Assembly (NCBI GenBank): GCA_903862655.1
Contig: CAIOZA010000072.1
Span: 3,926 to 67,925, forward strand
DNA from: an uncultured Ignavibacteria bacterium
Lineage (GTDB): Bacteria > Bacteroidota > Ignavibacteria > Kapaibacteriales > UBA2268
Direction: 5' to 3'
DNA: 64,000 nucleotides
The notes under the pieces are model-generated. The model was not told the origin of the DNA. It ran no database searches and was given only the letters and a program-made list of their open reading frames with translations. The position numbers were made by a program, and so were the translations under genes. This document shows positions 3,036-62,900 of this stretch, piece by piece (position 1 is the stretch's first letter; every line of letters begins with the position of its first letter).

Positions 3036-3699
3036 GATTTCTCCAAATTATGAATGGTGAAAATTATTATTTTCTTGTAAAATCTTATTCTAAATCCTAT
3101 CCAATCGAATTCAAAATCAGCATATTAGAATATTTTGGAACTTCTATAAATTAATTCAAAAAATTAAAAATTAAAAAAAGCAAGAAAATGGGATCTCCAA
3201 GAGCAAAATGAATAATTTGAATGAAAAATCAAATTATTGAATATGTATTCTTCTGCTGATCTCAGGTGCTTCCAAAATGTAAAACAAAATTAATAATAAT
3301 ATTAGACTAAACAAATTATATTTTATTATATAGTCATCTAATTTAGGGTAGTCTAAATCATCATAACCTTCAGTCGTTTAGAGAGTTTAACATGAATAAA
3401 AGATAAATCATTTACATCTTCTAGTCTGGCATAAATGGAAATGTCTAACACACGAATTCTTATTCTTTAAAACGGTAATTGGTCATCGAATTTGTTGGGT
3501 TTGTATCACAGAATATACTAAGCTTTTCTGCCAGTAAAGTCCGACGGAGCAAGAGAGTGTTAGTTAAATGTTATTGAATTTCGCATAATGATTCGTCGAT
3601 ATGAATATAGTTAATATTTTTTATTAACGCTAAATATTATAGTAATTTTACCGAATATATATATTCAAAATTAATTTATTAAGTCATCATGGGTTTGCT

Positions 3700-49290: not shown

Positions 49291-50418
49291 ATGATTGATA
49301 AATTTGTGCAATGGGAAAAAAATCGACATCAATATGCTAAAGACTGGAAGGCTAGGACTGGTGGCAAGGTTATGGGTTACTTTTGCACCTATGTTCCCGA
49401 AGAAATTCTTTATGCTGCAGATATATTGCCTGTTAGGATATTGGGAAGTCACGAACCTCACGATGTGACTGAAGCTCATATATTTGGAATGTATTGTCCA
49501 TTCAGCCGCGACTGCCTGGCTCAGGGATTGAAAGGACGCTATGACTATCTTGACGGCATTATGATTGCCCAGTCGTGTCTTCACATCAGGCAAGCATATA
49601 CAAGCTGGACCAAACACATACCGGTTGATTTCGAGTACTATCTGCCTATGCCAAATAACGTGCAGAGTCCTCATGCAACTCCATATCTAACTGAAGAAAT
49701 TACTCAGTTCAGAAAAGCCCTTGAAAAATGGATTGGAAGAGAGCTGACCGATGAAAATATCCAGAATGGCATTGATATAATGAACGAAAACCGTGCTCTT
49801 ATGCACGAACTATATACCTACAAAAAAAATGACAATCCACCTGTTTCCGGTGCTGACACTATGGAAATTGCAATTTCTCAGCAGATGGTTGACAAAAGAG
49901 AACACACTCAGGCATTAAAGGAATTGCTCGCAGAGCTTAGTGGAGGCAAATCATATTCTAAGAATTCAGGTACTCGATTGATGGTGCTTGGTAGCGAAAA
50001 CGACGATATCGCCTTTATTAAGATGGTAGAATCAGTTAATGGAACAGTCGTCGCTGACGATCACTGCATCGGAACACGCTACTTCTGGAATAACGTGAAA
50101 CCAAACGAAAATTTGGTAGAATCAATCGCTACAAGATATATTGAACGTCCGGCATGCCCAAGTAAGGACTGGATTGACAGAACCAGAATACCCCACATTC
50201 TCTCAATGGCTAAAGAATTTGATGTAAAGGGAGCTATTGTAATTCAGCAGAAGTTCTGCGATCCACATGAACTTGATATACCCGCGATTACAAAAGCATT
50301 GCAGGCTAATGATATCAAAACGTTGTTCCTCGAGTTCGATGTAACAGTGCCAATCGGTCAATTTAAAATCCGTGTTGAAGCATTCCTGGAAATGCTTCAA
50401 GAAGATGATTTATTCTAA
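49291..50418 (+). CDS. 2-hydroxyacyl-CoA dehydratase / class-I benzoyl-CoA reductase family, small catalytic subunit (HgdB/BcrC/BzdN-like)
   Basis: AAGGAG RBS. N-terminal GYFCTYVPEEILYAADILPVRILG typical of this family. 375 aa. Confidence 0.8.
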   Translation: MIDKFVQWEKNRHQYAKDWKARTGGKVMGYFCTYVPEEILYAADILPVRILGSHEPHDVTEAHIFGMYCPFSRDCLAQGLKGRYDYLDGIMIAQSCLHIRQAYTSWTKHIPVDFEYYLPMPNNVQSPHATPYLTEEITQFRKALEKWIGRELTDENIQNGIDIMNENRALMHELYTYKKNDNPPVSGADTMEIAISQQMVDKREHTQALKELLAELSGGKSYSKNSGTRLMVLGSENDDIAFIKMVESVNGTVVADDHCIGTRYFWNNVKPNENLVESIATRYIERPACPSKDWIDRTRIPHILSMAKEFDVKGAIVIQQKFCDPHELDIPAITKALQANDIKTLFLEFDVTVPIGQFKIRVEAFLEMLQEDDLF

Positions 50419-50433
50419 TTAGAAAGGAAAATA

Positions 50434-51738
50434 ATGTCTATACCTACTTATAAAACTGAAACTTTAAAATGCTGGAATAAAGCTAAAGAAATTCGTAATG
50501 ATTTCTATACAAATTATGCAAGTGCTCATGAAAAAGGCGGATTGAGATGGGCTGGTGGTGCGTGGAGCTTTGGAGCTATCCCCGCCGGACTCGGAAATGA
50601 TATCTTCCCCATCACCGGAGAACCATACGGAGCAAGCATTGCATTCAATAAAGAATTTTCTTTGCGTTGCCTCGAAGCAACTGAAAAAAAAGGTTATGCA
50701 CGCGATCTTTGTTCATACATGCGCTCATATTGGGGATCAATCATCCTTGATGAATATGCTTTTGGCGGAAAGTTTCCAAAACCTGATTTTATGTGGCAGG
50801 ATCATATTTGCTGCAGTCATTCCAAATGGTATCAGGTCGCTTCTGAATTGGAAGGTGGAATACCAACGTACAGCATAGATGTTGCAGTTGGTCCATACAA
50901 TAGTGTTTCTGATAGTAAAATTGAGTATTTAGTCAATCAGATGCACGACGGGATTGAATGGCTCAAGAAAACAACAGGTAGAGAATATAACGATGATCTT
51001 CTCATCGAAGCTGTAAATAACGAATGTCGCGCAACAGCTCTGTGGGCTGAGATTTGCCTTTTGAATATGACCGTACCAACTCCAATTGACGAAAAGAGTA
51101 TGTACTCTCTATATGTTCTCGGAACATTAGAAAAACACTCAAAGGTCGTCGCAGACTTTTATGAGGAACTTCTTGATGAAGTAAAATACAGAGTCGCAAA
51201 TGGAATTGGTGCAATTGCACACGAAAGATGCAGATTGATGTCAGATACACAGCCACCTTGGGGATTTCTCAGCGTATTCAGATATCTCGAAAAATTTGGA
51301 GCTGTATCCGTTGGTTCACTTTATACATTTGGATTGATTGGTGTTTGGGAAGATAAGCCCGATGGTACATGGGGACCTCGCACCACACCCAAGGAATTAG
51401 GTATAGATATCACAACCCGCGATCAGGCTTTGAAAATTCTCGCCGACTGGAATCTCAGCAAACCAGAGTGGCAACACTTCTACTCACCACACCTGAAAAG
51501 CGATATGATGATTAAAATCGCCAAGCAATGGAAGATCGACGGTGTGTTACTTCACTACAACCGCGGTTGTGAAGGTCTATCCCTCGGTATTGCTGAAAAT
51601 CGTCTTGCATTGATTGAAGCTGGATATCCTGTTATGGCTTTCGAAGGTAACATGGGCGATGAACGTGAATTCGATGAAGCTAAAACAATGGGCAGAATTG
51701 ATTCCTTTATGGAAACATTGGGAATGACCATTATTTAA
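50434..51738 (+). CDS. 2-hydroxyacyl-CoA dehydratase / benzoyl-CoA reductase family, large catalytic subunit (HgdA/BcrB/BzdO-like)
   Basis: [25 protein letters not shown] motif. 434 aa. Confidence 0.8.
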
Positions 51739-51764: not shown

Positions 51765-52526
51765 ATGATAAATGTTGGAATAGATGTCGGGGCTAAGAAT
51801 ATTAAAATCGTTATTGTCAATGGACAGGAAATAATCGCCAAAGGCAAGGTCCTGTCTGGTTTTGAAACTAAGGAAACAGTTATGGCTTTATACGATCAAC
51901 TTCTTGGCGAAGCAAATGTGACTAAAGATCAGATTAATCTGATAACTTCAACCGGTAGCGGAAGAAAAGCCGTGGACTTTGCACAAAAGAGCGTTACTGA
52001 AGTTACAGCTGCTGCTAAGGGAGCTACAACTCTCTATCCTAATGTACATTGCGTTATTGATGTCGGTGCCGAAGAAGGAAGATCTATTCGAGTCGATTCA
52101 AACGGGAAGATTGTCGATTTCGCATTGAATGAGAAATGCGCAGCCGGTGCAGGTGCTTTTATCGAATCGATGGCACGTGCTCTTGAGGTATCCATAGAAG
52201 ATTTTGGTATGCTTTCCCTTCAGTCCGACAGGGAAATTCCTATGAATGCTCAGTGTGCCGTATTTGCAGAATCTGAAGTAGTATCGCTTCTGCACTCCAA
52301 AACGGATAAAAAAGATATAGCAAAAGCTGTCAACGATGCTGTTGCCTCTCGTATCACATCGATGACACGTAAGGTTGGATTCGAAAACGATATAGAGCTC
52401 ATCGGCGGTATGGCTAAGAATACAGGGTTCATCAATGCCTTAAAAAAAGGACTCGACTCTGAAATTATTGTCCCTGAAAACGCAGAATACGTCACTGCTT
52501 TCGGTGCCGCTATTTATAATGATTAA
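51765..52526 (+). CDS. CoA-substrate-specific enzyme activase (HgdC/BcrD/BadG-type ASKHA ATPase with bridging [4Fe-4S])
   Basis: Aligns along its length with Acidaminococcus HgdC: GIDVG...TGSGR, NEKCAAGAGAF, VFAESEVVS, GGMAKNTG. 253 aa. Confidence 0.9.
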   Translation: MINVGIDVGAKNIKIVIVNGQEIIAKGKVLSGFETKETVMALYDQLLGEANVTKDQINLITSTGSGRKAVDFAQKSVTEVTAAAKGATTLYPNVHCVIDVGAEEGRSIRVDSNGKIVDFALNEKCAAGAGAFIESMARALEVSIEDFGMLSLQSDREIPMNAQCAVFAESEVVSLLHSKTDKKDIAKAVNDAVASRITSMTRKVGFENDIELIGGMAKNTGFINALKKGLDSEIIVPENAEYVTAFGAAIYND

Positions 52527-52562: not shown

Positions 52563-53429
52563 ATGGCTAAAGAATTCTGGCGTTGGAAAGAATATAATTG
52601 GAAAAGCGAAACAATAGATTGGAAAGATGGTAACACTGTATCTTGTGGTATTGATGTTGGTTCAGTTAGTTCTCAGGCAGTCATCCTCGTAGATGGCGAA
52701 TTATATGCCTATTCAAGTATGCGTACCGGATCTGACAGCCCTATGAGTGCAACTAATGCAATGAATTGGGCTTTGGAAGATACAGGTATGACTCAGGATA
52801 ATGTCCATTACGTTGTCGGTACTGGTTATGGAAGAGTTAATGTTCCATTTGCTAACAAAACTATTACTGAAATTGCATGCCATGCCAGAGGAGCTAATCT
52901 GATGTATGGCAATACTGTTCGCACAATCCTCGATATGGGTGGACAGGATTGTAAAGCCATTCGTTGCGATGAAAAAGGTAAAGTTACTAACTTTTTAATG
53001 AATGACAAATGTGCAGCAGGAACCGGGCGTGGTATGGAAGTATTTGCAGATCTGCTCTCGATTCCAATCGAAGATGTGGGTGAATTATCCTTCCAGGTCG
53101 ATGAAGAGCCACCTCCCGTCAGCAGCACTTGTGTCGTTTTTGCTAAAACAGAAGCAACAGGACTTCTTCGCGAAGGTTGGCCCAAGAATAAAGTTATAGC
53201 TGCTTACTGTTCCGCTATGTCCCATAGAGTGGTCACTTTGCTTCAGCGTATTGGCGTTGAAAGTGATTTCGTTATTACCGGCGGAATTGGAAAGAATGTT
53301 GGAATAGTCCGCAGATTATCACAGGAACTTGGTTTCGAAACACTCAAAACTAACTATGATTCACAGATCGCCGGTGCTTTGGGTGCCGCATTGTTTGGAA
53401 GAGCTCTTGCAGAAAAAGCTAGAAATTAA
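52563..53429 (+). CDS. Second, distinct activase-type ATPase (BcrA/BzdQ/BadF-like partner)
   Basis: GIDVGSVSSQ, NDKCAAGTGRG, VFAKTEATG, GGIGKNVG. Paralog of the preceding gene with an approx. 25-aa N-terminal extension. Confidence 0.85.
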   Translation: MAKEFWRWKEYNWKSETIDWKDGNTVSCGIDVGSVSSQAVILVDGELYAYSSMRTGSDSPMSATNAMNWALEDTGMTQDNVHYVVGTGYGRVNVPFANKTITEIACHARGANLMYGNTVRTILDMGGQDCKAIRCDEKGKVTNFLMNDKCAAGTGRGMEVFADLLSIPIEDVGELSFQVDEEPPPVSSTCVVFAKTEATGLLREGWPKNKVIAAYCSAMSHRVVTLLQRIGVESDFVITGGIGKNVGIVRRLSQELGFETLKTNYDSQIAGALGAALFGRALAEKARN

Positions 53430-53457: not shown

Positions 53458-53745
53458 ATGATTGCAAATTTTGGATACAAAGACGGATCAGGGGATTTCT
53501 ATATTAGTATCGATACCGATAAGTGCAATGGATGCGGTGATTGCATTCCTGCATGTCCCGTTGGTCTGTTGCAGATACGGGAGAATGAATATGATCCTAT
53601 GGCCGATGACAATATGGTAGTAGTACTCGAAGAGCATAGAAAGAAAATTAAATATTCATGTGCTCCTTGCAAAAATGAAGGTAAAGATAGTATCTTACCT
53701 TGTGTTAAGGTATGTCTGCCTAATGCAATTACACATTCCTGGTAA
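53458..53745 (+). CDS. Ferredoxin ([4Fe-4S] Cys cluster protein)
   Basis: CNGCGDCIPACP canonical 4Fe-4S motif plus a second Cys group CAPC...C...C. 95 aa. Confidence 0.7.
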   Translation: MIANFGYKDGSGDFYISIDTDKCNGCGDCIPACPVGLLQIRENEYDPMADDNMVVVLEEHRKKIKYSCAPCKNEGKDSILPCVKVCLPNAITHSW

Positions 53746-53760
53746 TTATTAGGGATTTAA

Positions 53761-56322
53761 ATGGATAAAATATCATTAAAGATAAATGGAATTGATTTGA
53801 CAGTCGATTCAGGTACAACTGTCTTAAATGCCGCTCGCAATGCCGGTGTATTTATACCCGTATTGTGCAGCCATCCTGATTTTGGATCATTCCAGACAAT
53901 CCAGTTGAGTGATTTCATTTATCAGGGTAACAACCGTATTGAAAGCGATCCAGACGCTGATATTACAAAATTACGTGGTTGTGGCATTTGTCTCGTTGCT
54001 GATGAAAATAATAATACTTTGATTCCTGCTTGTAAAGCTGTTGTTGAAGACGGAATGGCAATTCAGACAGATTCTGAAGTAATTAAGAAAAAGCGTCAGG
54101 AAAATCTTGCTGTAATTCTTAGCACACATCCTCATTCCTGCCTCACATGCAGCCAGCATGAAGGATGTATTCCAATGACAGATACATGTGCGGGGAATGT
54201 AAATACAATTGATCGCTGCTGCGCTTTGCTTAACAGATGTGAGATTCAGAAAATTGCAGATTATGTTGGTATTCCTGGGGAAACACAAAGATACATTCAC
54301 GGAAATCTACCTGTGGTTGATGATGATCCATTGTACAAAATTGATTACAATCTCTGTATCTCGTGCGGACGTTGTGTTCGTGTATGTCAGCAGGTAAAGG
54401 GTGTTTTCGCACTCGGAGCCGTTATTAAGGCTGGCAAACTGTTGATTGGCACTAGCGGTGGTCCTGGATTCAACTCTGCAGAATGTAAATTCTGCGGCTC
54501 CTGTGTGGAGGTATGCCCCACGGGATCATTGATGGATAAACGAGTCTACCGTCTTAAAGATGTTAATGAATTTGTTCCTTGTCGTGCCAATTGCCCGGGA
54601 GATGTAGATATACCTCAGTATCTGCGTCTTGTCTCCGAAAATAAACTTGACGAGGCGGCAGAAGTTATTGCTTCCAGACTTACTTTCCCATCAGTATTAG
54701 GCAAGGTATGTTTCCATCCTTGCGAAAGTACATGTAAACGTAATGAAGTCTCTGAGATTCTCAATGAGAATAAAGAAGCAGTTAATATTCGCATGATCAA
54801 GGATTATGCTATGACCTACGGTCATCTTCAAAAAGTTGAAAAACCATCCTATACATCAGGAAAAAAAGTATCTGTTATCGGTGCCGGTCCTGCCGGATTG
54901 ACTGCGTCTTATATCCTTGCTATGAAAGGGCATGCTGTTACTCTTTATGAGAAAGAGGATAAATTAGGCGGAATGCTGCGTTACGGGATTCCACGTTACC
55001 GTCTCCCAGGTGAGATATTGGACAAAGATCTCGATCGGTTGATGGAATCAGGCATGCAGGTTGTCACTGGTAAAACCTTTGGAAAAGATATCACTTTTTC
55101 TGATTTGAAAAATAACGGTAGTGATGCAGTCTTTATAGCAACCGGACTGTCAAAAAGCCGAAAACTCCCGTCTGATGGAGCTTCTAATGCAAATGTTATT
55201 GATGGGATGGATTTTCTGAACGATCTGAATAAGAACAATCTTGATTTGAATTATTTTGAGAACCAAACTGTTGTTATTATTGGTGGTGGTAACGTAGCCA
55301 CTGATGCTGCTAGATGTGCTGTTAGACTAAAAGCTAAGAAAGTAAGGATTATTTGTCTGGAGTCCAACAGTGAGATGCCTGCTTATCCGGAAGAAATAAA
55401 AGAAGCAAAGGAAGAAGGAATAATAATCAAGAATGGCTGGGGAGTTAATTCCATTGCTGACATTGGTAATTCGGAATTAGAAATCAATTTAAAGAAATGT
55501 ACTTCAGTTTTTAATGATACCGGGGCATTTTCTCCATCATTCAATGAATCTGTTAGTGAATCTGTAACGTGTAATAAAATTATTACCTGTATCGGGCAAC
55601 AATCAGATCCGATAGTGGCTAATGATGAGCAGATCAATAAACTCATTCATCATGGTTTAATCAAAGTAAATTCTGAAACTCTTCAGACCGACATCAGAGG
55701 ACTTTATGCAGGTGGAGATTTTGTTTCGGGTCCGGCATCAGTTATTGATGCTGTCGGAGCCGGACGAAAGGCTGCCATTTCTATTGATGTTTTCCTGGGT
55801 GGGGATGGCAATATCGAATTCAATCAAAATCTTGATGATTCATTTGATATGTTCATCGGACGTGAGGAAGGTTTCAACAAGCTGAACAGAATGTATGCCG
55901 AACTGATTGATCCTGATCAACGAGTAGACTCCTTTGTCGGAGTTGAGCAGACTTTAAATGAAAACAATGCATTGTGCGAGGCTAGCCGTTGTCTCCAATG
56001 CGATCTAAGAATGAAGCTTGGGCACAATCCAATGCCGCCTGAGAAATATATTAAATTTCATCCTGAATTTATTTCTGTTGTACCCGATATGGCAGGTGTA
56101 ATTCAGCTTCTCGATGACAAAAAGGAAGTCTTCTTTATTAAGGGAAGCGATAATCTAAAGCAATTTATACAAGAATTGCTCGATGATGGAAAAGAAGCTT
56201 CATACTTTATTTATGAAGAAGAACCTATGTACACAAAGAGAGAAAGCGAACTTTTACAGCAATATCTGCAGAAACATGGCAAAATGCCAGATGCAGGTGA
56301 CGATTTGGATGATTTGTTTTAA
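53761..56322 (+). CDS. Multidomain flavo-iron-sulfur oxidoreductase: NuoG/FdhA-like N-terminal [2Fe-2S]+[4Fe-4S] domain fused to GltD/NfnB-like NAD(P)H-dependent FAD subunit, with approx. 150-aa C-terminal extension
   Basis: 2Fe-2S ferredoxin-like start (LCSHPDF...CGICLV). His-ligated cluster HPHSCLTCSQHEGC. Two 4Fe-4S motifs CISCGRCVRVC and CKFCGSCVEVCP. GltD-type CRANCPGD / CFHPCESTC. Dinucleotide fold VSVIGAGPAGLTAS and second GGGNVATDAAR. Confidence 0.8.
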   Translation: MDKISLKINGIDLTVDSGTTVLNAARNAGVFIPVLCSHPDFGSFQTIQLSDFIYQGNNRIESDPDADITKLRGCGICLVADENNNTLIPACKAVVEDGMAIQTDSEVIKKKRQENLAVILSTHPHSCLTCSQHEGCIPMTDTCAGNVNTIDRCCALLNRCEIQKIADYVGIPGETQRYIHGNLPVVDDDPLYKIDYNLCISCGRCVRVCQQVKGVFALGAVIKAGKLLIGTSGGPGFNSAECKFCGSCVEVCPTGSLMDKRVYRLKDVNEFVPCRANCPGDVDIPQYLRLVSENKLDEAAEVIASRLTFPSVLGKVCFHPCESTCKRNEVSEILNENKEAVNIRMIKDYAMTYGHLQKVEKPSYTSGKKVSVIGAGPAGLTASYILAMKGHAVTLYEKEDKLGGMLRYGIPRYRLPGEILDKDLDRLMESGMQVVTGKTFGKDITFSDLKNNGSDAVFIATGLSKSRKLPSDGASNANVIDGMDFLNDLNKNNLDLNYFENQTVVIIGGGNVATDAARCAVRLKAKKVRIICLESNSEMPAYPEEIKEAKEEGIIIKNGWGVNSIADIGNSELEINLKKCTSVFNDTGAFSPSFNESVSESVTCNKIITCIGQQSDPIVANDEQINKLIHHGLIKVNSETLQTDIRGLYAGGDFVSGPASVIDAVGAGRKAAISIDVFLGGDGNIEFNQNLDDSFDMFIGREEGFNKLNRMYAELIDPDQRVDSFVGVEQTLNENNALCEASRCLQCDLRMKLGHNPMPPEKYIKFHPEFISVVPDMAGVIQLLDDKKEVFFIKGSDNLKQFIQELLDDGKEASYFIYEEEPMYTKRESELLQQYLQKHGKMPDAGDDLDDLF

Positions 56323-56334
56323 GAGGTTAATTTT

Positions 56335-56541
56335 ATGAATGAAATAATATTCAATGAGTCCGAATGGACAAGAAGAAATGTTGCCGAGGAACCGCGTTTG
56401 ACCGAATTGGTCGATCTATACACCGAATTGGGATTCGAGGTCTATCTGAAGGAAGTTGGCAAGGAAGAATGTCCATCTGACGACTGCACAACATGTTTGA
56501 TGGCTAGCCCCGATAAGTACAAGGTTATTTTTACAAGATAA
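56335..56541 (+). CDS. Small hypothetical protein (68 aa, Cys-containing)
   Basis: AAGAGG RBS 8 nt upstream. CPSDDCTTC. Sandwiched between the oxidoreductase and the acyl-CoA synthetase. Confidence 0.35.
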   Translation: MNEIIFNESEWTRRNVAEEPRLTELVDLYTELGFEVYLKEVGKEECPSDDCTTCLMASPDKYKVIFTR

Positions 56542-56567: not shown

Positions 56568-58643
56568 ATGCTTCAATCATTATTCGAACCGAGATCTGTT
56601 GCTATTATCGGAGCTTCAACGAAAGAATTGTCTATCGGTAATGTGATTATCAAAAATCTGCAAAAATTTAATTTTACAGGAAATATATACCCAATTAATC
56701 CAAAAGCACCTGATGTTCGCGGAATCAAAGCCTATAAAACGATTTCTGATGTACCTGAAGATATCGATGTTGTTCACTTGGTTATTCCCCCAGATAGAGT
56801 ACCTGATGCAATAGAAGAATGTGGCAGGGTGGGAGTTAAAAATGTTATCATCAATACTGCCGGATTTAAAGAAATGGGCGAGCATGGAGCTGCATTACAA
56901 AATGATTTTGTCGCCCGTGGTAAGAAATATGGCGTTAGAATGTTTGGTCCTAATTGTCAGGGTATAATCAATACAGATCCAGAATTTAATGCTTATTGTG
57001 ACTTTACTTTTACTTATCCAAAGCCCGGAAATATTTCAATTGTGGCTCAGAGTGGGGGAGTCGGAGCTGTTATTATGCAGAATATCTTCGATCTCGATGT
57101 CGGAATGCGAATGTATGCTTCCAATGGAAACGCCTGCGATATCTCGATACCCGAAATAATTAAATATTGGGGAGATGATGACGAGACTAAGGTTATCATA
57201 CTCTATATCGAAAGCCTTGATGATCCTGGTTATTTTATGGATGTTGCCAGAGAAGTTGCGGCTAAGAAGCCAATCCTGGCGATGAATGCGGGTAGAACAC
57301 TTGAAGGAGCTAAAGCCGCTACATCTCATACCGGCGGTCTTGCCGGAGGAATTGTAACAGATCTGATTTTCAAAAAAACCGGAATCTTATCATTCAAAGA
57401 TACTCAGGAAATGTGTCAGGCAGCTATCGCATTCGCGGCTCAGCCGATTCCACGTGGTAAACGTGTTGGGATGATTACCAACACCGGAGGTCCGGCAATC
57501 ATTGCTACTGATGAACTTGTCGATGGTGGACTCGAAATTCCCGAACTTTCAGCAAAAGCCGAAGAAGTTCTGAAAAAGACTATGTTTGCATCTGCATCGA
57601 TTAACAATCCGATTGATGTTGTCGCTACTGCTGGCGCACCTGAGTTCAGAAGTGCACTGGATGTGATGATGAACGAAGAACAGATTGATAGTATTTATAT
57701 AAATTTTGTAACACCGCCTTTTGTGGACTGCGAAAGTGTAGCAAAAGAATTTGCTGAGGTGTCATCTAAACGCATTAAACCTATTGTCTGCAATTATATG
57801 ACTGATAAAGCTCAGTGGGTTGAAACAACAAAGATTCTGAGCGATGGCGGAATTCCTTTCTATGATTTCCCTGGCACGGCAGCCAAAGCTCTTGTCGCTC
57901 TTACCAAATACTATGAATTAAAATCCAGAGATAAAGGAACCATACCTGATTTTAAAGATATTAATGCCGATGCTGTTAGTGCAATCATAAGTAAAGCCAA
58001 GGCAGAAGGACGTGAAATTCTTTCATCTTTTGAAGTTTATGCAATTCTAGATTATTATAATATTCCAACTTCGGAGTGGTTCATTGCCGAGAACAAAGCC
58101 GATGCTATGCTCGGAGCCGAGAAAATTGGTTATCCGTTAGTGCTAAAAGCTGACGCACCGGAGCTTGTGCACAAAAGCGATGCAGGCGGTGTGGTTCTAA
58201 ATCTGGCAAGTGCTATTGCTTTCTCCTCTGCTGTGGCTCAAATGTCACAGAAATTCAGTGATATCAAGCATAATTATTTCATACAGAAATTCATGCCGGG
58301 TGGAAAGGAACTCATTATCGGTGCTAAATCTGAAAAAGGTGTTGGGCACATGATTATGTTCGGTATGGGCGGCATTTATGTAGAAGTTTTAAAGGATGTG
58401 TGTTTTGAACTTGCTCCTATTAGTGATACAGAAGCTCTTGAGATGATTACTTCAATCAAAATGTACCCGATTATCAAGGGTGTGCGCGGTGAGAAAGGTT
58501 TGAATATTCAATCAATTATGGATGTTATACTCAAAATCTCGAAGCTTGTTCAAAATCATCCTGAAATTTTGGAACTTGATTTGAATCCTGTCATGGCTTT
58601 TGAAAACTCTGTGGCAGTCGTTGACGCAAGAATTAAAATATAA
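56568..58643 (+). CDS. ADP-forming acyl-CoA synthetase (NDP-forming, fused alpha/beta: CoA-binding + ligase-CoA + ATP-grasp)
   Basis: N-terminal PRSVAIIGAS...NIYPINP CoA-binding fold, GPNCQGI, catalytic-His region SHTGGLAG, C-terminal ATP-grasp_5 (GYPLVLKADAPELVHKSDAGGV). 691 aa. Confidence 0.85.
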   Translation: MLQSLFEPRSVAIIGASTKELSIGNVIIKNLQKFNFTGNIYPINPKAPDVRGIKAYKTISDVPEDIDVVHLVIPPDRVPDAIEECGRVGVKNVIINTAGFKEMGEHGAALQNDFVARGKKYGVRMFGPNCQGIINTDPEFNAYCDFTFTYPKPGNISIVAQSGGVGAVIMQNIFDLDVGMRMYASNGNACDISIPEIIKYWGDDDETKVIILYIESLDDPGYFMDVAREVAAKKPILAMNAGRTLEGAKAATSHTGGLAGGIVTDLIFKKTGILSFKDTQEMCQAAIAFAAQPIPRGKRVGMITNTGGPAIIATDELVDGGLEIPELSAKAEEVLKKTMFASASINNPIDVVATAGAPEFRSALDVMMNEEQIDSIYINFVTPPFVDCESVAKEFAEVSSKRIKPIVCNYMTDKAQWVETTKILSDGGIPFYDFPGTAAKALVALTKYYELKSRDKGTIPDFKDINADAVSAIISKAKAEGREILSSFEVYAILDYYNIPTSEWFIAENKADAMLGAEKIGYPLVLKADAPELVHKSDAGGVVLNLASAIAFSSAVAQMSQKFSDIKHNYFIQKFMPGGKELIIGAKSEKGVGHMIMFGMGGIYVEVLKDVCFELAPISDTEALEMITSIKMYPIIKGVRGEKGLNIQSIMDVILKISKLVQNHPEILELDLNPVMAFENSVAVVDARIKI

Positions 58644-58668
58644 AATTAACAATAAATTAGTAAACAAT

Positions 58669-59868
58669 ATGCATAAAATTGAATCAGCAAAACTCTTAAA
58701 ACAGGTAATGACAGACTATTTCATTGGTCTGGGGAATAAAGAAAAGAAAATTGCCTGGTGCACAAGTGTTGGTCCGGCAGAACTTCTCAGGAGTTTTGGC
58801 TTTGAGGTCTATTTTCCGGAAAATCATGGAGCTCTTCTCGGGACAGCAAGACTCTCGGGTGAGTTCATTCCGGTAGCGGCAAAACTTGGTTATTCCAGCG
58901 AAATATGCTCGTATTTGACAAGTGATATTGGGTCTTATTTGAGCAAGAATACTCCTATGACCAAGCATTACGGCTTAGAGTCTGTTCCCAAACCTGATCT
59001 GCTTGTTTATAATACCAATCAGTGCCGTGAGGTTCAGGACTGGATGATGTTTTATGCAAATGAATTTAAGTGTCCAATCCTTGGCATTCAGTCACCACGT
59101 TATCTCGATGAAGTTAAGACTTCAGATATTGATAATGTTACTGCTCAATTCAAAGCAATGATTCCTACTTGCGAGGATGTTACAGGTCTCAAATTCGATT
59201 TGGATAAATTTAAAGCAACCCTAAAGATAAGTAAGGAAGCAACTCTGCTGTGGAAGCAATGCTTAGAAACTGCCCGTAATGTCCCTGCACCTATTTCATT
59301 CTTCGACAGTACAATCCACATGGGTCCAATAGTAGTTCTTCGTGGTACTGAAGTTGCTAAATCGTATTATGAAGCTTTATTATCTGAGTTGAACACTCAT
59401 GTTCAAGCTGGCTCAGGAATTCTTGAAAACGAAAAAGTTCGCGTGTATTGGGAAGGAATGCCAATCTGGGGCAAACTGCGTTATAGTTCAGACTTATTCT
59501 CAAGTCACAACGCCGCTGTTGTAGCATCAACATATTGTAACAGCTGGATATTCGACGATTTCGATGAAGATCATCCATTCGAATCATCAGCTCTGGCTTA
59601 TTCAACAATCTTCATTAATATGAGCGAAGCTACAAAAACAAATAGAATGATTAAACTAATTGAAGAATATCAGATTAAAGGCGTTGTTTTTCATGAAGCA
59701 AAAACCTGCTTCAATAATTCAAATTCATCGTTCGGAATGCCTCAAAGACTCAAAGAAGCAACAGGTGTTGAAACACTTGTCATCGAAGGCGATCTCTGCG
59801 ACTTGAGATTCTTTTCTGAAGCACAAACCACAACTAAAATTGAAACATTTATTGAACAAATTCTTTGA
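58669..59868 (+). CDS. Third 2-hydroxyacyl-CoA dehydratase-family subunit (HgdB-like, orphan)
   Basis: KIAWCTSVGPAELLRSFGFEVYFPENHGA and EICSYLTSD motifs. Start moved to ATG 58669 (MHKIESAKLL) to avoid overlapping the upstream gene. Confidence 0.75.
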   Translation: MHKIESAKLLKQVMTDYFIGLGNKEKKIAWCTSVGPAELLRSFGFEVYFPENHGALLGTARLSGEFIPVAAKLGYSSEICSYLTSDIGSYLSKNTPMTKHYGLESVPKPDLLVYNTNQCREVQDWMMFYANEFKCPILGIQSPRYLDEVKTSDIDNVTAQFKAMIPTCEDVTGLKFDLDKFKATLKISKEATLLWKQCLETARNVPAPISFFDSTIHMGPIVVLRGTEVAKSYYEALLSELNTHVQAGSGILENEKVRVYWEGMPIWGKLRYSSDLFSSHNAAVVASTYCNSWIFDDFDEDHPFESSALAYSTIFINMSEATKTNRMIKLIEEYQIKGVVFHEAKTCFNNSNSSFGMPQRLKEATGVETLVIEGDLCDLRFFSEAQTTTKIETFIEQIL

Positions 59869-60827
59869 TTCTTATGGATGATAAAAAGTTAAAAATTGGC
59901 GTAATTGGCATGGGGTCAATCGGATTAGTTCTTGCCGTTACTCTTCAGGAAGCCGGATGCGAGGTTGTGGTCTGTGATTACGACAAAGAAAAAATGAACA
60001 GGATACGCAATGAAGGCATTAAGATCATCGGTGCTTTTAATAAAACCTGCTTCTTTGATTATAATTATACATCGGTAGCCGATCTTCTGGAGCATGATGT
60101 CGATATTCTCATAAGTGCTGTCAAGTCCTATCGAGTAGATCTGTTGCTGGATCAGATAGAACATTACAGCCATAACGGCATGTATCTTCTCTGTGCACAG
60201 AACGGAATAGACATCGGATTGAAATATATAAGCCACTTCAACGAATCTCAGATCCTGAGAATGGTTATTAATTTTGCTGGTGTGCTCAATGCACCCAATG
60301 TTTCGAGTGTTACTTTCTTCGAACCACCGAACTATATAGCTTCAATAAATGATGCTCATCCGGAAGTATCAGCAAAACTGGCCGATCTGATGACAAAAGG
60401 CGGGATGCAAACTGATAGCATTGATTCATTCACTATCACCAATCATGTTTGGGCAAAAACTATTCTTATCGCGTCTATCAGCCCGCTGTGCGGAATATCC
60501 AATCTTGTAATCAATGAAGCGCTCAAAAATCCTGATACTATGGAAATCGTCGAAGGAATAATCATGGAATCCCTGGAAGTGGCTAAAGCCGAAGGGATCA
60601 ACCTCGGGGCGAATATTTCAAAACATCTTCTGCGCAGTTTAAAAAATTCCGGAAGTCATCTCCCTTCAATTGCCGTTGATATGTTGAATGGACGTGAGAC
60701 TGAGATTGATTATATTAATGGAAAAATTGTGGAATTTGGAAGAAAACATTACATCCAAACTCCATTAAATCTTATTTTTACTAATTTAGTTAAAGCAATA
60801 ACCAAGAAGAACATGGGGTTACATTGA
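59865..60827 (+). CDS. Ketopantoate-reductase-family (ApbA/PanE) NAD(P)H-dependent 2-oxoacid reductase
   Basis: KIGVIGMGSIGLVLA Rossmann. C-terminal SIAVDMLNGRETEIDYINGKIV (PanE signature). Alternative start ATG 59874. Confidence 0.8.
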   Translation: MILMDDKKLKIGVIGMGSIGLVLAVTLQEAGCEVVVCDYDKEKMNRIRNEGIKIIGAFNKTCFFDYNYTSVADLLEHDVDILISAVKSYRVDLLLDQIEHYSHNGMYLLCAQNGIDIGLKYISHFNESQILRMVINFAGVLNAPNVSSVTFFEPPNYIASINDAHPEVSAKLADLMTKGGMQTDSIDSFTITNHVWAKTILIASISPLCGISNLVINEALKNPDTMEIVEGIIMESLEVAKAEGINLGANISKHLLRSLKNSGSHLPSIAVDMLNGRETEIDYINGKIVEFGRKHYIQTPLNLIFTNLVKAITKKNMGLH

Positions 60828-61912
60828 ACATTAAAATACCCCAACATATTATAGACCTCAAGCCCTACGTGCCGGGCAAGCCAATAGAAGAACTCCAAAA
60901 AGAATTTGGATTCGAAAGAGTCGTTAAACTTGCTTCAAACGAGAATCCGATTGGAGTGTCTCCTTTAGCTATTCAGGCAATGTTCAGTGCTATATACCAG
61001 CTCAACCGTTATCCCGATATTGCCAGTTTGATGCTCAGGCAAAAATTATCAGAATTCTTCAGTATACCATCGGAGAATATAGTAACTGGACATGGTTCAG
61101 AAGCCATCATACAGACTGTAATAAGAGCATTCGTTGCCGACGATGAAGAAGTCCTGACCGTGAACGGCACTTTCGTCGGATTTTATGTTATTTCGAGAGC
61201 TCGCGGTATAAAGATGAATCTTATCCCACTGAAGGAGTACCATTTCGATCTTATGGCTCTGGCAGAGGCTATCACTCCAAAAACAAAAGTAATTTATCTT
61301 GTCAATCCTAATAATCCTACTGGCACCATATTCTCTAAAACTGAGTTCGATGAATTTCTTAAGGTTGTTCCTGATAATATCATTGTCATTGTCGATGAAG
61401 CATATTTTGAATTTGTTAAGGATAATCCTTTGTTCCCGAACACCATGGAATATAAGCAGGATAATATCATAACTCTTCGTTCATTTTCTAAGGCTTATGG
61501 ATTAGCCGGAATCCGCTTGGGTTATGGGTTTGCTAATGCTGAACTTGTCTCCTATATGCTCAAAGTGAGGTTGCCATTTGAACCTGGGATACCATCTCAG
61601 GCTGCCGGCATTGCTGCTTTGATGGATACCCAGTTTTTGGAGTATTATCTGAGCCTTAACCGGCAGGGTAAAGAATTTATCTACAGTTTATATGATGAAC
61701 TTGGTATTCACTATATAAAAACAGAAGCAAACTTCATCATGAGCGTTTTCGAATCTGAAGAGCGTGTGAATGAAATTAATGAAAAATTACTTCGTAAAGG
61801 TGTTATCATCCGTCCTCTCAAACCATTCGGATTGCCGCATTGCTTGAGAGTAACCATAGGGACCCCGGAAGAAAACGAAATTTTTGCGAAACATTTGAAA
61901 TCTATATTTTAA
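60824..61912 (+). CDS. Class-II (HisC-family) pyridoxal-phosphate aminotransferase
   Basis: TTG start overlapping the previous stop. IDLKPYVPGKP, LASNENP, PLP-Lys region RSFSKAYGLAGIRLGY. Confidence 0.8.
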   Translation: MNIKIPQHIIDLKPYVPGKPIEELQKEFGFERVVKLASNENPIGVSPLAIQAMFSAIYQLNRYPDIASLMLRQKLSEFFSIPSENIVTGHGSEAIIQTVIRAFVADDEEVLTVNGTFVGFYVISRARGIKMNLIPLKEYHFDLMALAEAITPKTKVIYLVNPNNPTGTIFSKTEFDEFLKVVPDNIIVIVDEAYFEFVKDNPLFPNTMEYKQDNIITLRSFSKAYGLAGIRLGYGFANAELVSYMLKVRLPFEPGIPSQAAGIAALMDTQFLEYYLSLNRQGKEFIYSLYDELGIHYIKTEANFIMSVFESEERVNEINEKLLRKGVIIRPLKPFGLPHCLRVTIGTPEENEIFAKHLKSIF

Positions 61913-61934
61913 ACTTGAGAATCTTACTAAGATT

Positions 61935-62900
61935 ATGGAACCTAATAAGTTAAAAATCGGAGTGCTGGGACTTGGCCCAGTAGGATTGACTATTGCTGTT
62001 CATTTGAAAGAAGCCGGTTGCGATGTTGCAATTTGCGATGTTATAAAAGAAAAAATTAACTTGATCAGAACAGCCGGTATTCATCTTGTAGAGAAAATTG
62101 AGAAGCAGTGTTACATTAATCATACATATTATTCATTAAAGGATATGCTTGATAGTGGAATTGATATCCTGATATGTGCTTCCAAAGCTTACCATGTTGA
62201 TAAAATTCTTGATGAAATCCGCGAGCACAATCAGAATGAAAAATTGCTGATCATTAGTGCTCAGAATGGAATCGGAGTTTCTCAGATGTATGCTGATCAT
62301 TTCAATGAATCTCAGGTATTCAGAATGGTTGTTAATTTTGCTGGCAACATGAATGCTCCGAACGTTGTGAAGGTGACATTCTTCAATCCTCCGAATTATA
62401 TTGCTTCAAAAGACGACACCAAACGTGATGTATCGGATTGGTTCGCTGCCTTACTCAATTCTGTAAATTTGAGCACATATAGTATTGATTCCTTCACTCT
62501 AAGAAATCGAATCTGGGAGAAAACATTGCTCAATGCAGGGCTTAGTCCTCTTTGCGCCATATCTGGTCTGACTATGCGTGAAGCCATGGTGGATCCTGAT
62601 ACAAATGAAATCGTTGAGAAATTAATTCTCGAATCAATTGCTGTTGCTAAGGCTGAGGAAATAGTTCTGCCGGAGAATTTTGTGAAACTCTGCATCAGAT
62701 ACTTTAAAGGTGCTGGCGACCATTTCCCTTCACTGGCCGTTGACTTGATGAATAAAAGCAAGACTGAAATTGATTTTATGAATGGAAAAATAGTCGAATT
62801 TGGCAGAAAGCATTATATAAGAACTCCTTTAAATCTGACATTAACAAATTTGGTAAAAGCTATTACTCAAAAGAATCTATCTGATGAAAAAGGGGCTTAA
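61935..62900 (+). CDS. Second ketopantoate-reductase-family reductase (paralog of 59865..60827, about half the residues identical by eye)
   Basis: KIGVLGLGPVGLTIA. SLAVDLMNKSKTEIDFMNGKIVEFGRKHYIRTPLNLTLTNLVKAI is near-identical in the C-terminus to the first copy. Confidence 0.8.
   Translation: MEPNKLKIGVLGLGPVGLTIAVHLKEAGCDVAICDVIKEKINLIRTAGIHLVEKIEKQCYINHTYYSLKDMLDSGIDILICASKAYHVDKILDEIREHNQNEKLLIISAQNGIGVSQMYADHFNESQVFRMVVNFAGNMNAPNVVKVTFFNPPNYIASKDDTKRDVSDWFAALLNSVNLSTYSIDSFTLRNRIWEKTLLNAGLSPLCAISGLTMREAMVDPDTNEIVEKLILESIAVAKAEEIVLPENFVKLCIRYFKGAGDHFPSLAVDLMNKSKTEIDFMNGKIVEFGRKHYIRTPLNLTLTNLVKAITQKNLSDEKGA

What the first reader, a model, noticed from the sequence alone, without database searches (positions are those of the whole stretch)
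53761..56322. Unusual 853-aa fusion of a NuoG/hydrogenase-type Fe-S N-domain to a GltD/NfnB-type NAD(P)H flavoprotein, placed as the probable electron donor system for the radical enzyme
The protein chains several cofactor-binding regions: a plant-type 2Fe-2S start, the His-ligated 4Fe-4S cluster typical of NuoG/FdhA/HydA N-domains, two ferredoxin-type 4Fe-4S motifs, then the two-cluster Cys motifs and the FAD/NAD(P) dinucleotide folds of glutamate-synthase small-subunit-like enzymes. It ends in an uncharacterised approx. 150-aa acidic C-terminal extension (…DDGKEASYFIYEEEPMY…DDLDDLF). It sits directly after the ferredoxin. Class-I BCRs need a low-potential ferredoxin regenerated by a dedicated oxidoreductase (KorAB in Thauera, a three-subunit NADPH-dependent enzyme in Azoarcus). 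A single-polypeptide NAD(P)H:ferredoxin reductase of this architecture in that role would be new. It could also be a bifurcating module.
Basis: partly seen in the sequence, partly recalled or inferred. Interest (0 to 1): 0.65.

Follow-up and report, generated by a model that had tools for sequence, protein, structure and literature searches.

The report
NADH-type electron feeder for benzoyl-CoA reductase
This is a real 853-residue iron-sulfur flavoprotein that in every relative examined sits right behind the genes for an ATP-driven aromatic-ring reductase and its ferredoxin, so it is most likely the untested enzyme that passes electrons from NAD(P)H to that reductase.

Summary
The ORF (53761-56322, +, 853 aa) and its domain chain are real, and it is not a frameshift artefact. 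More than 100 full-length homologues (42-97% identity) occur in at least eight bacterial and archaeal phyla.

All 11 full-length homologues whose surroundings I could read lie in the order BzdN-BzdO-BzdP-BzdQ-ferredoxin-fusion. None has a hydrogenase, formate dehydrogenase or NuoE/NuoF gene nearby.

The protein is best read as a BzdV/ThnG-type Fe-S protein with a GltD/NfnB-type FAD/NAD(P)H module inserted. The Fe-S part is a NuoG-like N-domain with two family-specific inserts plus a C-terminal DUF7508 domain. A roughly 367-aa short form without the flavin module also exists. In NaphS2 it sits after the tetrahydronaphthoyl-CoA reductase genes.

The "acidic C-terminal extension" has two parts. 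The first is a GltD-family tail (RCLQC motif). The second is DUF7508, predicted to have a GIY-YIG-like fold, ending in a conserved acidic DDLDDLF tail.

The dinucleotide site carries an invariant Cys-Leu-Glu where five NADPH-using solved relatives have Tyr-Arg-Arg. This predicts NADH rather than NADPH.

Most likely mechanism: NAD(P)H to FAD to Fe-S chain to ferredoxin to BCR, in a linear path. Bifurcation is not excluded. This is a new variant of a known but uncharacterised kind. Nothing has been tested biochemically.

The parts
49291..50418 (+). BzdN-type benzoyl-CoA reductase subunit (HGD-D family)
   Evidence: NCBIfam TIGR03190 scores 502 bits, above the cut-off of 454. Pfam HGD-D.
50434..51738 (+). 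BzdO-type benzoyl-CoA reductase subunit
   Evidence: NCBIfam TIGR03191 scores 669 bits, above the cut-off of 449.
51765..52526 (+). BzdP-position ATPase subunit (BcrAD_BadFG)
   Evidence: Pfam PF01869 and TIGR00241. No bzd-specific model reaches its cut-off.
52563..53429 (+). BzdQ-type ATPase subunit
   Evidence: NCBIfam TIGR03192 scores 451 bits, above the cut-off of 380.
53458..53745 (+). 95-aa 2x[4Fe-4S] ferredoxin, the presumed acceptor of the fusion and donor to the reductase
   Evidence: Fer4 families. Motifs are CxxCxxCxxxCP and CxxCx10CxxxC. A ~94-aa ferredoxin lies at the same position in 10 of 11 loci.
53761..54075 (+). Residues 1-105: NuoG/HydA-type [2Fe-2S] domain (C36, C74, C77, C91) with a ~37-residue family-specific insert
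   Evidence: Fer2_4 is matched in two stretches. The four Cys are invariant. pLDDT is 81-91.
54094..54270 (+). Residues 112-170: His-ligated [4Fe-4S] motif (H123, C127, C130 ... C160-E-I-Q), interrupted by a 24-residue insert with four extra invariant Cys (C136, C143, C153, C154). The insert is a possible additional cluster.
   Evidence: The insert is absent from the NuoF-linked relatives L005 and L027. It is present in the short and intermediate forms. pLDDT is below 50 here, so its structure is unresolved.
54328..54540 (+). Residues 190-260: two ferredoxin-type [4Fe-4S] motifs (C199/202/205/209 and C242/245/248/252)
   Evidence: Fer4_Nqo3 and Fer4_7. The Cys are invariant.
54577..54819 (+). 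Residues 273-353: GltD/NfnB/DPD-type two-[4Fe-4S] domain (C274, C278, C317, C321, C325; K347 aligns with StnC K170)
   Evidence: Fer4_20 at 57.6 bits. Alignment to StnC and Nfn-ABC.
54865..55800 (+). Residues 369-680: FAD-binding (GAGPAGL, 374-380) and NAD(P)H-binding (GGGNVATD, 508-515) Rossmann folds
   Evidence: Pyr_redox_2 at 100 bits. Foldseek to NfnL 5jca_L (TM 0.74 on the target) and to GltD.
55354..55362 (+). C532-L533-E534 at the end of strand beta-2 of the dinucleotide fold, the predicted NADH (not NADPH) specificity determinant
   Evidence: Invariant in 23 homologues and in 7 further BCR-linked loci. Aligned to Y-R-R in 9bov_A, 9n5u_A, 8oh5_C, 4ylf_B and 5jca_L.
55828..56010 (+). 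Residues 690-750: GltD-family tail ending in the invariant R-C744-L-Q-C747 motif
   Evidence: PRK12771 covers up to residue 747. Aligned to RCLEC of StnC and Nfn-ABC.
56038..56322 (+). Residues 760-853: DUF7508 domain (beta-beta-alpha-beta-alpha, GIY-YIG-like fold) with a conserved acidic tail ...DDLDDLF
   Evidence: Pfam DUF7508 at E 5.8e-4 in the window's copy, and above the cut-off in homologues. The domain is always at the extreme C-terminus, in 311 clusters. The AF2 model has pLDDT 77.5. Foldseek's best hit is the UvrC GIY-YIG domain (E 2.7e-3, TM 0.53/0.61).
56335..56541 (+). Conserved 68-aa ORF of unknown function that follows the fusion
   Evidence: Homologous ORFs lie at the same place in L001, L002 and L084-L087. 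No family hit.

Best explanation
The gene encodes the dedicated electron-input enzyme of the adjacent Bzd-type, ATP-dependent benzoyl-CoA reductase.

Proposed path. NAD(P)H, by sequence probably NADH, binds the GltD/NfnB-type module and reduces FAD. Electrons leave one at a time through the two GltD-type [4Fe-4S] clusters. They then pass along the NuoG-like Fe-S chain of the N-domain: two ferredoxin-type clusters, the His-ligated cluster, possibly an extra cluster in the Cys-rich insert, and the [2Fe-2S]. They reach the co-encoded 95-aa 2x[4Fe-4S] ferredoxin. The ferredoxin feeds the BzdP/Q ATPase module of the reductase.

Origin. The protein is a BzdV/ThnG-type Fe-S protein (N-domain plus DUF7508 C-domain) into which the flavin module has been inserted. 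The DUF7508 domain and its acidic tail are proposed to be a docking element for the ferredoxin or the reductase.

Shown: the domains, the invariant ligands, the conserved gene order and the existence of the short form.

Inferred: direction of electron flow, linear rather than bifurcating transfer, NADH preference, and the docking role of the C-domain.
For: (1) Synteny. HGD-D, HGD-D, BcrAD, BcrAD, ferredoxin, fusion lie on one strand in 7 of 7 metagenomic or MAG contigs. The one exception is L082, where no ferredoxin gene was called. The same order holds in 4 of 4 genome loci that keep the C-domain: Ignavibacteriales, Latescibacterota, Planctomycetota and a Thermoplasmata archaeon. None of the other 76 genome loci with more distant GltD-like relatives has Bzd genes.

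(2) The neighbours are true bzd-type subunits, above NCBIfam equivalog cut-offs.

(3) All cofactor motifs are invariant across 23 homologues at 42-62% identity.

(4) No NuoE/NuoF homologue occurs in the 64-kb window or in the 11 loci. Positive controls hit.

(5) In the closest solved relative, StnC, the same GltD module takes a hydride from NADPH. It passes electrons linearly through its two clusters into a NuoG-like chain (PMC10482914). The Lys ligand K170 of StnC is conserved here as K347.

(6) Stand-alone NfnB-like proteins are monofunctional ferredoxin:NADP+ oxidoreductases (PMC12221290).

(7) The short form lacks any flavin site yet occupies the same position after BCR-like genes and a ferredoxin. 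So the N- and C-domains are the BCR/ferredoxin-facing part, and GltD is an added input module.

(8) In cell extracts of culture N47, the related tetrahydronaphthoyl-CoA reductase works best with NADH (PMC12016498).
Against: No biochemistry exists for any member.

NAD(P)H (E0' about -320 mV, my own knowledge) is a poor donor for the low-potential ferredoxins used by class-I BCRs. A simple linear reaction would be uphill. It would need mass action, pull by the ATP-driven reductase, or some coupling not visible in the sequence.

Some related clusters (L093, L094) pair an intermediate form with NuoE/NuoF-like genes. This shows that the N-domain can work with a bifurcating module.

The NADH prediction rests on one motif and the general Rossmann-fold rule.

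The Cys-rich insert is modelled at pLDDT below 50, so the number of clusters is unknown.

I never obtained the sequence of the name-giving Azoarcus BzdV. The link to it runs only through the annotation of the NaphS2/TRIP_1 orthologues.
Confidence: 0.6

Rival explanations
1. It is a self-contained flavin-based electron-bifurcating enzyme. The GltD-type FAD would split the NAD(P)H electron pair as in NfnB. One electron would go at low potential to the ferredoxin. The other would run down the N-domain Fe-S chain to an unidentified high-potential acceptor.
For: The thermodynamic gap between NAD(P)H and a BCR ferredoxin would be solved this way. The GltD module is homologous to bifurcating NfnB. 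The Arg that contacts FAD N5 in NfnB is conserved here as R414. There are more clusters than a simple wire needs, including a possible extra one.
Against: No second nucleotide or acceptor site is detectable. No NfnA-like partner lies in 11 neighbourhoods. The same Arg is conserved in StnC, which does not bifurcate at this FAD (PMC10482914). In StnC the GltD clusters and the NuoG-like clusters form one linear chain, not two branches.
Confidence: 0.12
2. It is the StnC/NfnABC-like large subunit of a Bfu-type complex. Its NuoE/NuoF-like (HydBC-type) bifurcating partners would be encoded elsewhere in the genome.
For: The NuoG-like N-domain is the module that docks NuoF-like subunits in StnABC and Nfn-ABC, the closest solved structures. 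Relatives with the same N+GltD order (L005, L027) sit beside NuoF-like genes. So do the intermediate forms (L093, L094).
Against: There is no NuoE/NuoF gene in the 64-kb window. There is none within 8-10 kb in any of the 11 full-length loci from many phyla. Bfu-type relatives, by contrast, keep these genes adjacent. The BCR-linked family differs from the NuoF-linked relatives by two inserts and the DUF7508 domain.
Confidence: 0.12
3. It serves another enzyme or works in the other direction. It could be a ferredoxin:NAD+ oxidoreductase for redox balancing. It could also be the donor for the 2-hydroxyacyl-CoA-dehydratase-like protein encoded downstream (58600-59868) rather than for the BCR.
For: Oxidation of ferredoxin by NAD+ is the exergonic direction. 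A second HGD-D gene, and in other loci a BcrAD activase, lies downstream in Ignavibacteria-type clusters.
Against: The downstream block is missing in the Acidobacteriota, Latescibacterota, Planctomycetota and L081 loci. BzdNOPQ-ferredoxin-fusion is kept in all of them. Dehydratase activators need only catalytic electrons.
Confidence: 0.08
4. It is a sequencing or assembly artefact that joins two genes.
For: None found.
Against: The reading frame is uninterrupted. More than 100 colinear full-length homologues come from independent assemblies.
Confidence: 0.01

Closest known systems
BzdV / ThnG-type 'oxidoreductase' of bzd and thn clusters. It is called a putative NADPH:ferredoxin oxidoreductase in Azoarcus sp. 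CIB. The NaphS2 protein at the NPH_5892 position is EFK08285.1.
   Same: Same position directly after the four reductase genes, usually with a ferredoxin. Same NuoG-like N-domain with both family-specific inserts. Same DUF7508 C-domain with acidic tail.
   Different: The short form is ~367 aa and has no FAD or NAD(P)H site. The window protein has a ~490-residue GltD-type module inserted between the two domains. The Azoarcus BzdV sequence itself was not available to me.
StnC of the Sporomusa ovata StnABC transhydrogenase (8oh5_C), and the large subunit of the Caldicellulosiruptor and Thermococcus NfnABC complexes (9bov_A, 9n5u_A)
   Same: A NuoG-like Fe-S module and a GltD-like FAD/NAD(P)H module in one polypeptide. 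These are the best sequence and fold matches. The Lys ligand and the RCLxC motif are shared.
   Different: The domain order differs. In StnC, GltD is inserted right after the [2Fe-2S] domain. StnC has a C-terminal molybdopterin-like domain that the window protein lacks. StnC works with NuoE/NuoF-like StnAB, which are absent here. StnC has Tyr-Arg-Arg (NADPH), not Cys-Leu-Glu. StnC has no DUF7508.
NfnB/NfnL, and the Cac_0764-type monofunctional ferredoxin:NADP+ oxidoreductases
   Same: The same two-[4Fe-4S] + FAD + dinucleotide module, at ~30% identity and TM ~0.75 on the target. Ferredoxin is a substrate (PMC12221290).
   Different: Those are ~460 aa with no extra Fe-S domain and no DUF7508. 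They are NADPH-specific. They are not linked to BCR genes.
Known ferredoxin-regenerating systems of class-I BCRs: KorAB 2-oxoglutarate:ferredoxin oxidoreductase (Thauera), and the three-subunit 2-oxoglutarate:NADP+ oxidoreductase (Azoarcus type)
   Same: The same physiological job is proposed. The Azoarcus-type enzyme also contains a GltD-like subunit. An example is the GltD-like + KorA + KorB locus on Aromatoleum EbN1 plasmid 2.
   Different: Those are 2-oxoacid-dependent TPP enzymes. The window cluster has no Kor genes within the operon. NAD(P)H would be the donor here.
GIY-YIG domains (UvrC N-terminal domain, N-terminal domain of plant AtGRXS16)
   Same: The predicted beta-beta-alpha-beta-alpha fold of residues ~775-840. 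Remnants of the GxY and YxG motifs and of the Glu remain in many homologues. One short-form homologue even carries a precomputed PF01541 hit.
   Different: The match is weak (E ~3e-3, 17% identity). The window's copy has Ile for the first Tyr and Lys for the Arg. There is no reason to expect nuclease activity in this context.

Membership tests
GltD/NfnB/DPD-type Fe-S flavoprotein module | N-terminal domain with the Cys ligands of two [4Fe-4S] clusters (Pfam Fer4_20) | tested here: met
   Fer4_20 scores 57.6 bits against a cut-off of 25.8. C274, C278, C317, C321 and C325 are invariant.
GltD/NfnB/DPD-type Fe-S flavoprotein module | FAD and NAD(P)H dinucleotide folds (GxGxxG and GGGNxAxD) | tested here: met
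   Pyr_redox_2 scores 100 bits. G374-L380 and G508-D515 are invariant. TM is 0.74-0.77 on NfnB/GltD targets.
GltD/NfnB/DPD-type Fe-S flavoprotein module | Tyr-Arg-Arg after strand beta-2 of the NADPH fold, as in the NADPH-using solved members | tested here: not met
   Cys-Leu-Glu (532-534) is invariant in this family. YRR is found in 9bov_A, 9n5u_A, 8oh5_C, 4ylf_B and 5jca_L.
NuoG/HydA/HoxU N-terminal Fe-S module | [2Fe-2S] with four Cys, and two ferredoxin-type [4Fe-4S] motifs | tested here: met
   Fer2_4, Fer4_Nqo3 and Fer4_7. All twelve Cys are invariant. The [2Fe-2S] domain carries a 37-residue insert.
NuoG/HydA/HoxU N-terminal Fe-S module | Contiguous HxxxCxxCxxxxxC(ELQ) His-ligated cluster motif | tested here: inconclusive
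   H123, C127, C130 and C160-E-I-Q are present. They are split by a 24-residue, 4-Cys insert. The Pfam hit is only 24.6 bits, below the cut-off of 27. The region is modelled at pLDDT below 50.
NuoG/HydA/HoxU N-terminal Fe-S module | Works with an adjacent NuoF/HoxF/HydB-like flavoprotein | tested here: not met
   No NuoE/NuoF homologue in the window or in 11 related loci. Controls were positive.
StnC / NfnABC large subunit (Bfu-type transhydrogenase) | GltD module inserted after the [2Fe-2S] domain, C-terminal molybdopterin-like domain, StnAB partners | tested here: not met
   Here GltD follows the whole N-module. There is no molybdopterin-like domain (853 aa against ~1170 aa). No partners are present.
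BzdV/ThnG-type BCR-associated Fe-S protein | Encoded directly downstream of BzdNOPQ-type genes (and usually a ferredoxin) | tested here: met
   The window itself. 11 of 11 full-length homologues. Short forms in L089, L090 and L091.
BzdV/ThnG-type BCR-associated Fe-S protein | N-domain with the Cys-rich insert, plus a C-terminal DUF7508 domain | tested here: met
   (insert shared). (DUF7508; the window's copy is sub-threshold at 20.4 bits but aligns over its full length with members).
BzdV/ThnG-type BCR-associated Fe-S protein | Identity with the name-giving Azoarcus sp. CIB BzdV | not testable with these tools
   That sequence could not be retrieved. It was absent from the plasmid collection. 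It was not among the named hits.
GIY-YIG superfamily (C-terminal domain only) | GIY-YIG fold with catalytic Tyr, Tyr, Arg, Glu, Asn | tested here: inconclusive
   The fold match is weak but is the top hit. The motif residues are only partly kept, and the window's copy has Ile and Lys substitutions.

The most novel reading that the evidence does not exclude
The fusion acts as a 'Rosetta stone'. It would show that BzdV-type Fe-S proteins are the adaptor between a GltD-type flavoprotein and the BCR ferredoxin.

In this form, one polypeptide would drive ATP-dependent aromatic ring reduction directly from NADH. It would dock onto the reductase or ferredoxin through a recruited GIY-YIG-fold domain and acidic tail. 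It might overcome the ~150 mV uphill step by an as yet unseen coupling, such as bifurcation or tight complex formation with the ATPase module.

That would define the long-missing electron-donor system of Bzd-type reductases.
Probability: 0.2. Interest if true: 0.75.

Novelty: new variant of a known kind. Interest (0 to 1): 0.55.

Why it matters
Class-I benzoyl-CoA reductases are the key enzymes of anaerobic aromatic degradation. For the widespread Bzd type, the route by which the low-potential ferredoxin is re-reduced has only been guessed ("BzdV, putative NADPH:ferredoxin oxidoreductase").

This family gives a concrete candidate that can be cloned. One gene carries both the dinucleotide site and the BzdV-like Fe-S module, and its ferredoxin is encoded next to it. 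The hypothesis can therefore be tested with two proteins.

The family also sharpens the picture of BzdV. The short form has no flavin or dinucleotide site, so it cannot be an NAD(P)H oxidoreductase on its own.

There is a practical side. Attempts to transplant BCR pathways into other hosts have been limited by the electron supply (PMC6500515). A single-gene NADH-linked donor would help.

Tried and rejected
(1) Frameshift or mis-join: rejected.

(2) Partnership with hydrogenase or formate dehydrogenase: rejected. No such genes lie in any of the 11 neighbourhoods, even though some sources auto-name the protein 'formate dehydrogenase beta subunit'.

(3) StnC/NfnABC membership: rejected on domain order, the missing molybdopterin-like domain and the missing StnAB partners.

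(4) Retrieving Azoarcus/Aromatoleum BzdV failed.
- The plasmid collection holds only the GltD-like + KorAB locus of EbN1 plasmid 2.
- The last two homologue searches returned no protein named BzdV.
- The 2004 bzd paper and the 2009 review are not held.

(6) Reading cluster geometry from the AF2 model was not possible. Coordinates are not exposed, and the Cys-rich insert has pLDDT below 50.

(7) I checked whether the ORF-poor region 1-3700 is an rRNA or other RNA locus. There were no Rfam hits. It is a >1015-aa minus-strand ORF that runs off the window.


Full report
**1. Observation**

The ORF at 53761-56322 (+) is real: ATG start, 853 codons, no internal stop.

Pfam finds, in order:
- Fer2_4 (res 3-38 and a second stretch)
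- a weak NADH-G_4Fe-4S_3 match (112-136; 24.6 bits, cut-off 27)
- Fer4_Nqo3/Fer4 (190-257)
- Fer4_20 (273-353)
- Pyr_redox_2 (369-668)

NCBIfam places residues 262-747 in the GltD-like PRK12771/PRK12814 group. It matches the N-terminus to the N-termini of group A6 [FeFe]-hydrogenase, HoxU and NuoG.

The gene starts 15 nt after a 95-aa ferredoxin with motifs CxxCxxCxxxCP and CxxCx10CxxxC. Upstream are four genes. Three score above the NCBIfam equivalog cut-offs for bzd-type benzoyl-CoA reductase subunits N, O and Q. The fourth is a BcrAD-type ATPase in the P position.

**2. A family, not an accident**

A search of 5.8 billion proteins returned more than 100 proteins of 830-875 aa. They align over about 100% of the query at 42-97% identity. 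Their sources are named Ignavibacteria, Kapabacteria, Bacteroidota, KSB1, Fidelibacterota, Acidobacteriota and Bathyarchaeia.

In a 23-sequence alignment every predicted ligand is invariant:
- C36/C74/C77/C91
- H123/C127/C130/C160
- C199/202/205/209 and C242/245/248/252
- C274/278/317/321/325
- the FAD and NAD(P)H glycine motifs
- C744/C747

A mis-join by frameshift is excluded.

**3. Three refinements to the anatomy**

(a) The [2Fe-2S] domain has a ~37-residue insert between its first and second Cys.

(b) The His-cluster motif is interrupted. In NuoF-linked relatives it reads HPxDCxxC-NKYxNCELQ. Here 24 residues with four more invariant Cys (C136, C143, C153, C154) are inserted before the final C-E-I-Q. 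Seven Cys plus one His would suffice for two clusters. This is inference. AF2 models the stretch at pLDDT below 50.

(c) The "150-aa acidic extension" is two things.
- Residues ~690-750 are still GltD-family tail. The RCLQC motif aligns with RCLEC of StnC and Nfn-ABC.
- Residues ~760-853 are Pfam DUF7508. Distant homologues score above the cut-off. The window's copy scores 20.4 bits, E 5.8e-4.
- A separate AF2 model of this domain (pLDDT 77.5) has a beta-beta-alpha-beta-alpha core. Its best PDB matches are the GIY-YIG domain of UvrC and the GIY-YIG-like N-domain of plant GRXS16 (E ~3e-3, TM 0.5-0.64). The match is weak but consistent.
- The tail ...D-x-LDDLF is nearly invariant.

**4. Genomic association**

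I read the surroundings of seven diverse full-length homologues (P0115, P0093, P0099, P0063, P0082, P0053, P0024). All seven show HGD-D, HGD-D, BcrAD, BcrAD, [ferredoxin], fusion on one strand. The ferredoxin was not called in L082.

Of 80 genome loci recovered with a family profile, only four keep the C-domain. These are Ignavibacteriales, Latescibacterota, Planctomycetota and a Thermoplasmata archaeon. All four have BzdN/O/P/Q and the ferredoxin directly upstream. None of the other 76 has Bzd genes. That makes 11 of 11.

No hydrogenase or formate dehydrogenase genes are present. No NuoE/NuoF homologue occurs in the whole 64-kb window or in these loci, while the same queries hit the control loci L005, L027, L036 and L072.

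**5. What it is related to**

By sequence and by fold the closest solved proteins are the large subunits of the Bfu-type transhydrogenases. These are Caldicellulosiruptor Nfn-ABC (9bov_A), Sporomusa StnC (8oh5_C) and Thermococcus NfnABC (9n5u_A). NfnB/NfnL, GltD and DPD follow.

StnC is also a NuoG+GltD fusion (PMC10482914), so the combination as such is known. But StnC differs in four ways:
- GltD is inserted right after the [2Fe-2S] domain.
- It has a C-terminal molybdopterin-like domain.
- It depends on the NuoE/NuoF-like StnAB.
- It has no DUF7508.

Proteins with the window's domain order but without DUF7508 also exist (L005, 705 aa; L027, 696 aa). They lack both inserts and lie beside NuoF-like genes. 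The BCR-linked family is therefore a distinct branch. It is defined by the two inserts, DUF7508, and the absence of a NuoF partner.

**6. The short form**

I searched 1.84 billion cluster representatives with the C-domain alone. This gave 311 clusters (181 at E up to 1e-10). The domain is always at the extreme C-terminus.

Most short hits are colinear fragments. A separate class of 345-375-aa proteins matches residues 1-260 and 750-853 of the fusion and nothing in between. Several hundred such proteins exist. They keep both inserts.

The contexts I could read were:
- P0137 follows a 95-aa ferredoxin.
- P0322 follows HGD-D, a fused double BcrAD and a ferredoxin.
- P0326 (EFK08285.1, NaphS2) follows the four tetrahydronaphthoyl-CoA reductase genes. 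It precedes the two MaoC genes, the thiolase and the rest. This is exactly the NPH_5892 slot of the published thn cluster (PMC12016498).

The TRIP_1 orthologue of that gene is annotated "BzdV protein" (PMC6849830). BzdV of Azoarcus is described as a putative NADPH:ferredoxin oxidoreductase (PMC5658619, PMC6678401).

I conclude that the window protein is a BzdV/ThnG-type protein with a GltD module inserted between its two domains. Caveat: I could not obtain the Azoarcus BzdV sequence, so the link to the name-giving protein is indirect.

Other module combinations also occur:
- A 509-aa form is followed by NuoE-like, NuoF-like and a 369-aa Fe-S protein in a thn-like cluster (L093).
- A 638-aa form is preceded by NuoE/NuoF-like genes in a Thermoplasmata genome (L094).

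The common theme is a BzdV-like Fe-S core served by interchangeable dinucleotide-dependent input modules.

**7. Dinucleotide specificity**

At the end of strand beta-2 of the NAD(P)H fold (AF2 strand 527-532), the five NADPH-using solved relatives all read Tyr-Arg-Arg-(Thr/Ser). The window protein reads Cys-Leu-Glu-Ser. C532, L533 and E534 are invariant in the 23-sequence alignment and in seven further BCR-linked loci.

An acidic residue at this position is the classical marker of NAD(H) over NADP(H) preference in Rossmann folds (established knowledge). I therefore predict NADH as the donor (inference, moderate confidence). This agrees in spirit with a report on culture N47. In its cell extracts the tetrahydronaphthoyl-CoA reductase reaction was fastest with NADH (PMC12016498).

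**8. Mechanism**

Most likely (0.6): NAD(P)H to FAD, to the two GltD-type clusters (with K347 aligning to the StnC cluster ligand K170), to the N-domain chain, to the 95-aa ferredoxin, to BzdP/Q, to BzdN/O.

Supporting analogies:
- The linear chain is taken from StnC, where the same modules form one wire (PMC10482914).
- Ferredoxin reactivity of the bare module is shown for Cac_0764-type enzymes (PMC12221290).

The short form shows that the N- and C-domains are the part that belongs with the reductase and ferredoxin. I propose that DUF7508 and its acidic tail are a docking device (inference only).

The weak point is energetics. NAD(P)H at about -320 mV against BCR ferredoxins well below -400 mV (my own knowledge) makes the reaction uphill.

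Rivals:
- bifurcation at the FAD (0.12)
- a Bfu-type complex with partners encoded elsewhere (0.12)
- a different client or the reverse direction (0.08)
- artefact (0.01)

**9. Novelty and verdict**

A dedicated oxidoreductase beside bzd-type BCR genes is an old hypothesis, not a new one. NuoG+GltD fusions are also known.

What is new, as far as the searchable literature goes, is this particular architecture and its strict linkage to BzdNOPQ-ferredoxin across at least eight phyla of Bacteria and Archaea. Also new are the short/long relationship, the likely extra cluster, the GIY-YIG-like C-domain and the NADH-type site.

It is a new variant of a known, still uncharacterised kind. It makes the open question of the Bzd-type electron donor directly testable. 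Interest 0.55.

Noticed in passing
window 56335-56541 (+): A 68-aa ORF directly after the fusion is conserved at the same place in L001, L002 and L084-L087. Its motif is W.RRN..DEPRLSEL..Y..LGFEV...C.EC...PEKYKVIYTR. It has no Pfam or NCBIfam match. It may be a further component of the system.
   Followed up: partly
window 56568-63474 (+): A downstream block holds an ADP-forming acyl-CoA ligase, a lone HGD-D protein (its listed ORF starts 44 nt before the ligase stop), two ApbA/PanE-like reductases, a HisC-like aminotransferase and a MobA-like protein. The same block recurs in L084, L085 and L087. In L084 and L085 a BcrAD activase precedes the HGD-D gene (L087 has none). No activase is present in the window. 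It looks like an aryl-amino-acid / 2-hydroxyacyl-CoA dehydratase route feeding the BCR.
   Followed up: no
window 53458-53745 (+): The ferredoxin has an atypical second cluster motif (CxxCx10CxxxC). It also has a ~34-residue insert between the two motifs. This length (~94 aa) is kept in the related loci.
   Followed up: partly
L093 7001-12047; L094 4894-8917: Intermediate forms of the family occur beside NuoE-like and NuoF-like genes. One is 509 aa (N-domain + Fer4_20 + FAD part). The other is 638 aa (with DUF7508). L093 lies inside a thn-like BCR cluster. L094 has no BCR genes within 7 kb. This suggests interchangeable input modules, some possibly bifurcating.
   Followed up: partly
L091/L092 5537-10104: A single HGD-D gene, a fused double BcrAD ATPase (572 aa), a ferredoxin and the short form lie together. 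The BzdV-like/ferredoxin pair therefore also accompanies ATP-dependent radical enzymes that are not four-subunit BCRs.
   Followed up: no
L086 11863-18547: In a KSB1 genome the fusion is followed by a multi-subunit 2-oxoacid:ferredoxin oxidoreductase and a separate 548-aa GltD-like protein. Both kinds of ferredoxin-reducing system therefore sit in one cluster.
   Followed up: no
L088 (Aromatoleum aromaticum EbN1 plasmid 2, 4890-9594): A GltD-like FAD-dependent oxidoreductase (595 aa) lies directly upstream of the alpha and beta subunits of a 2-oxoacid:acceptor oxidoreductase. This is the three-subunit arrangement of the Azoarcus-type 2-oxoglutarate:NADP+ enzyme.
   Followed up: no
window 28645-31185 and 34663-35874 (+): Two proteins carry the T9SS C-terminal sorting domain (Por_Secre_tail). 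Together with 34-40% G+C and a 97%-identical homologue (P0001), this points to an Ignavibacteria/FCB-group host.
   Followed up: no
window 1-~3050 (-): The apparently ORF-free left end is a >1015-aa minus-strand ORF running off the window. The ORF lister does not show it. There are no Rfam hits.
   Followed up: yes
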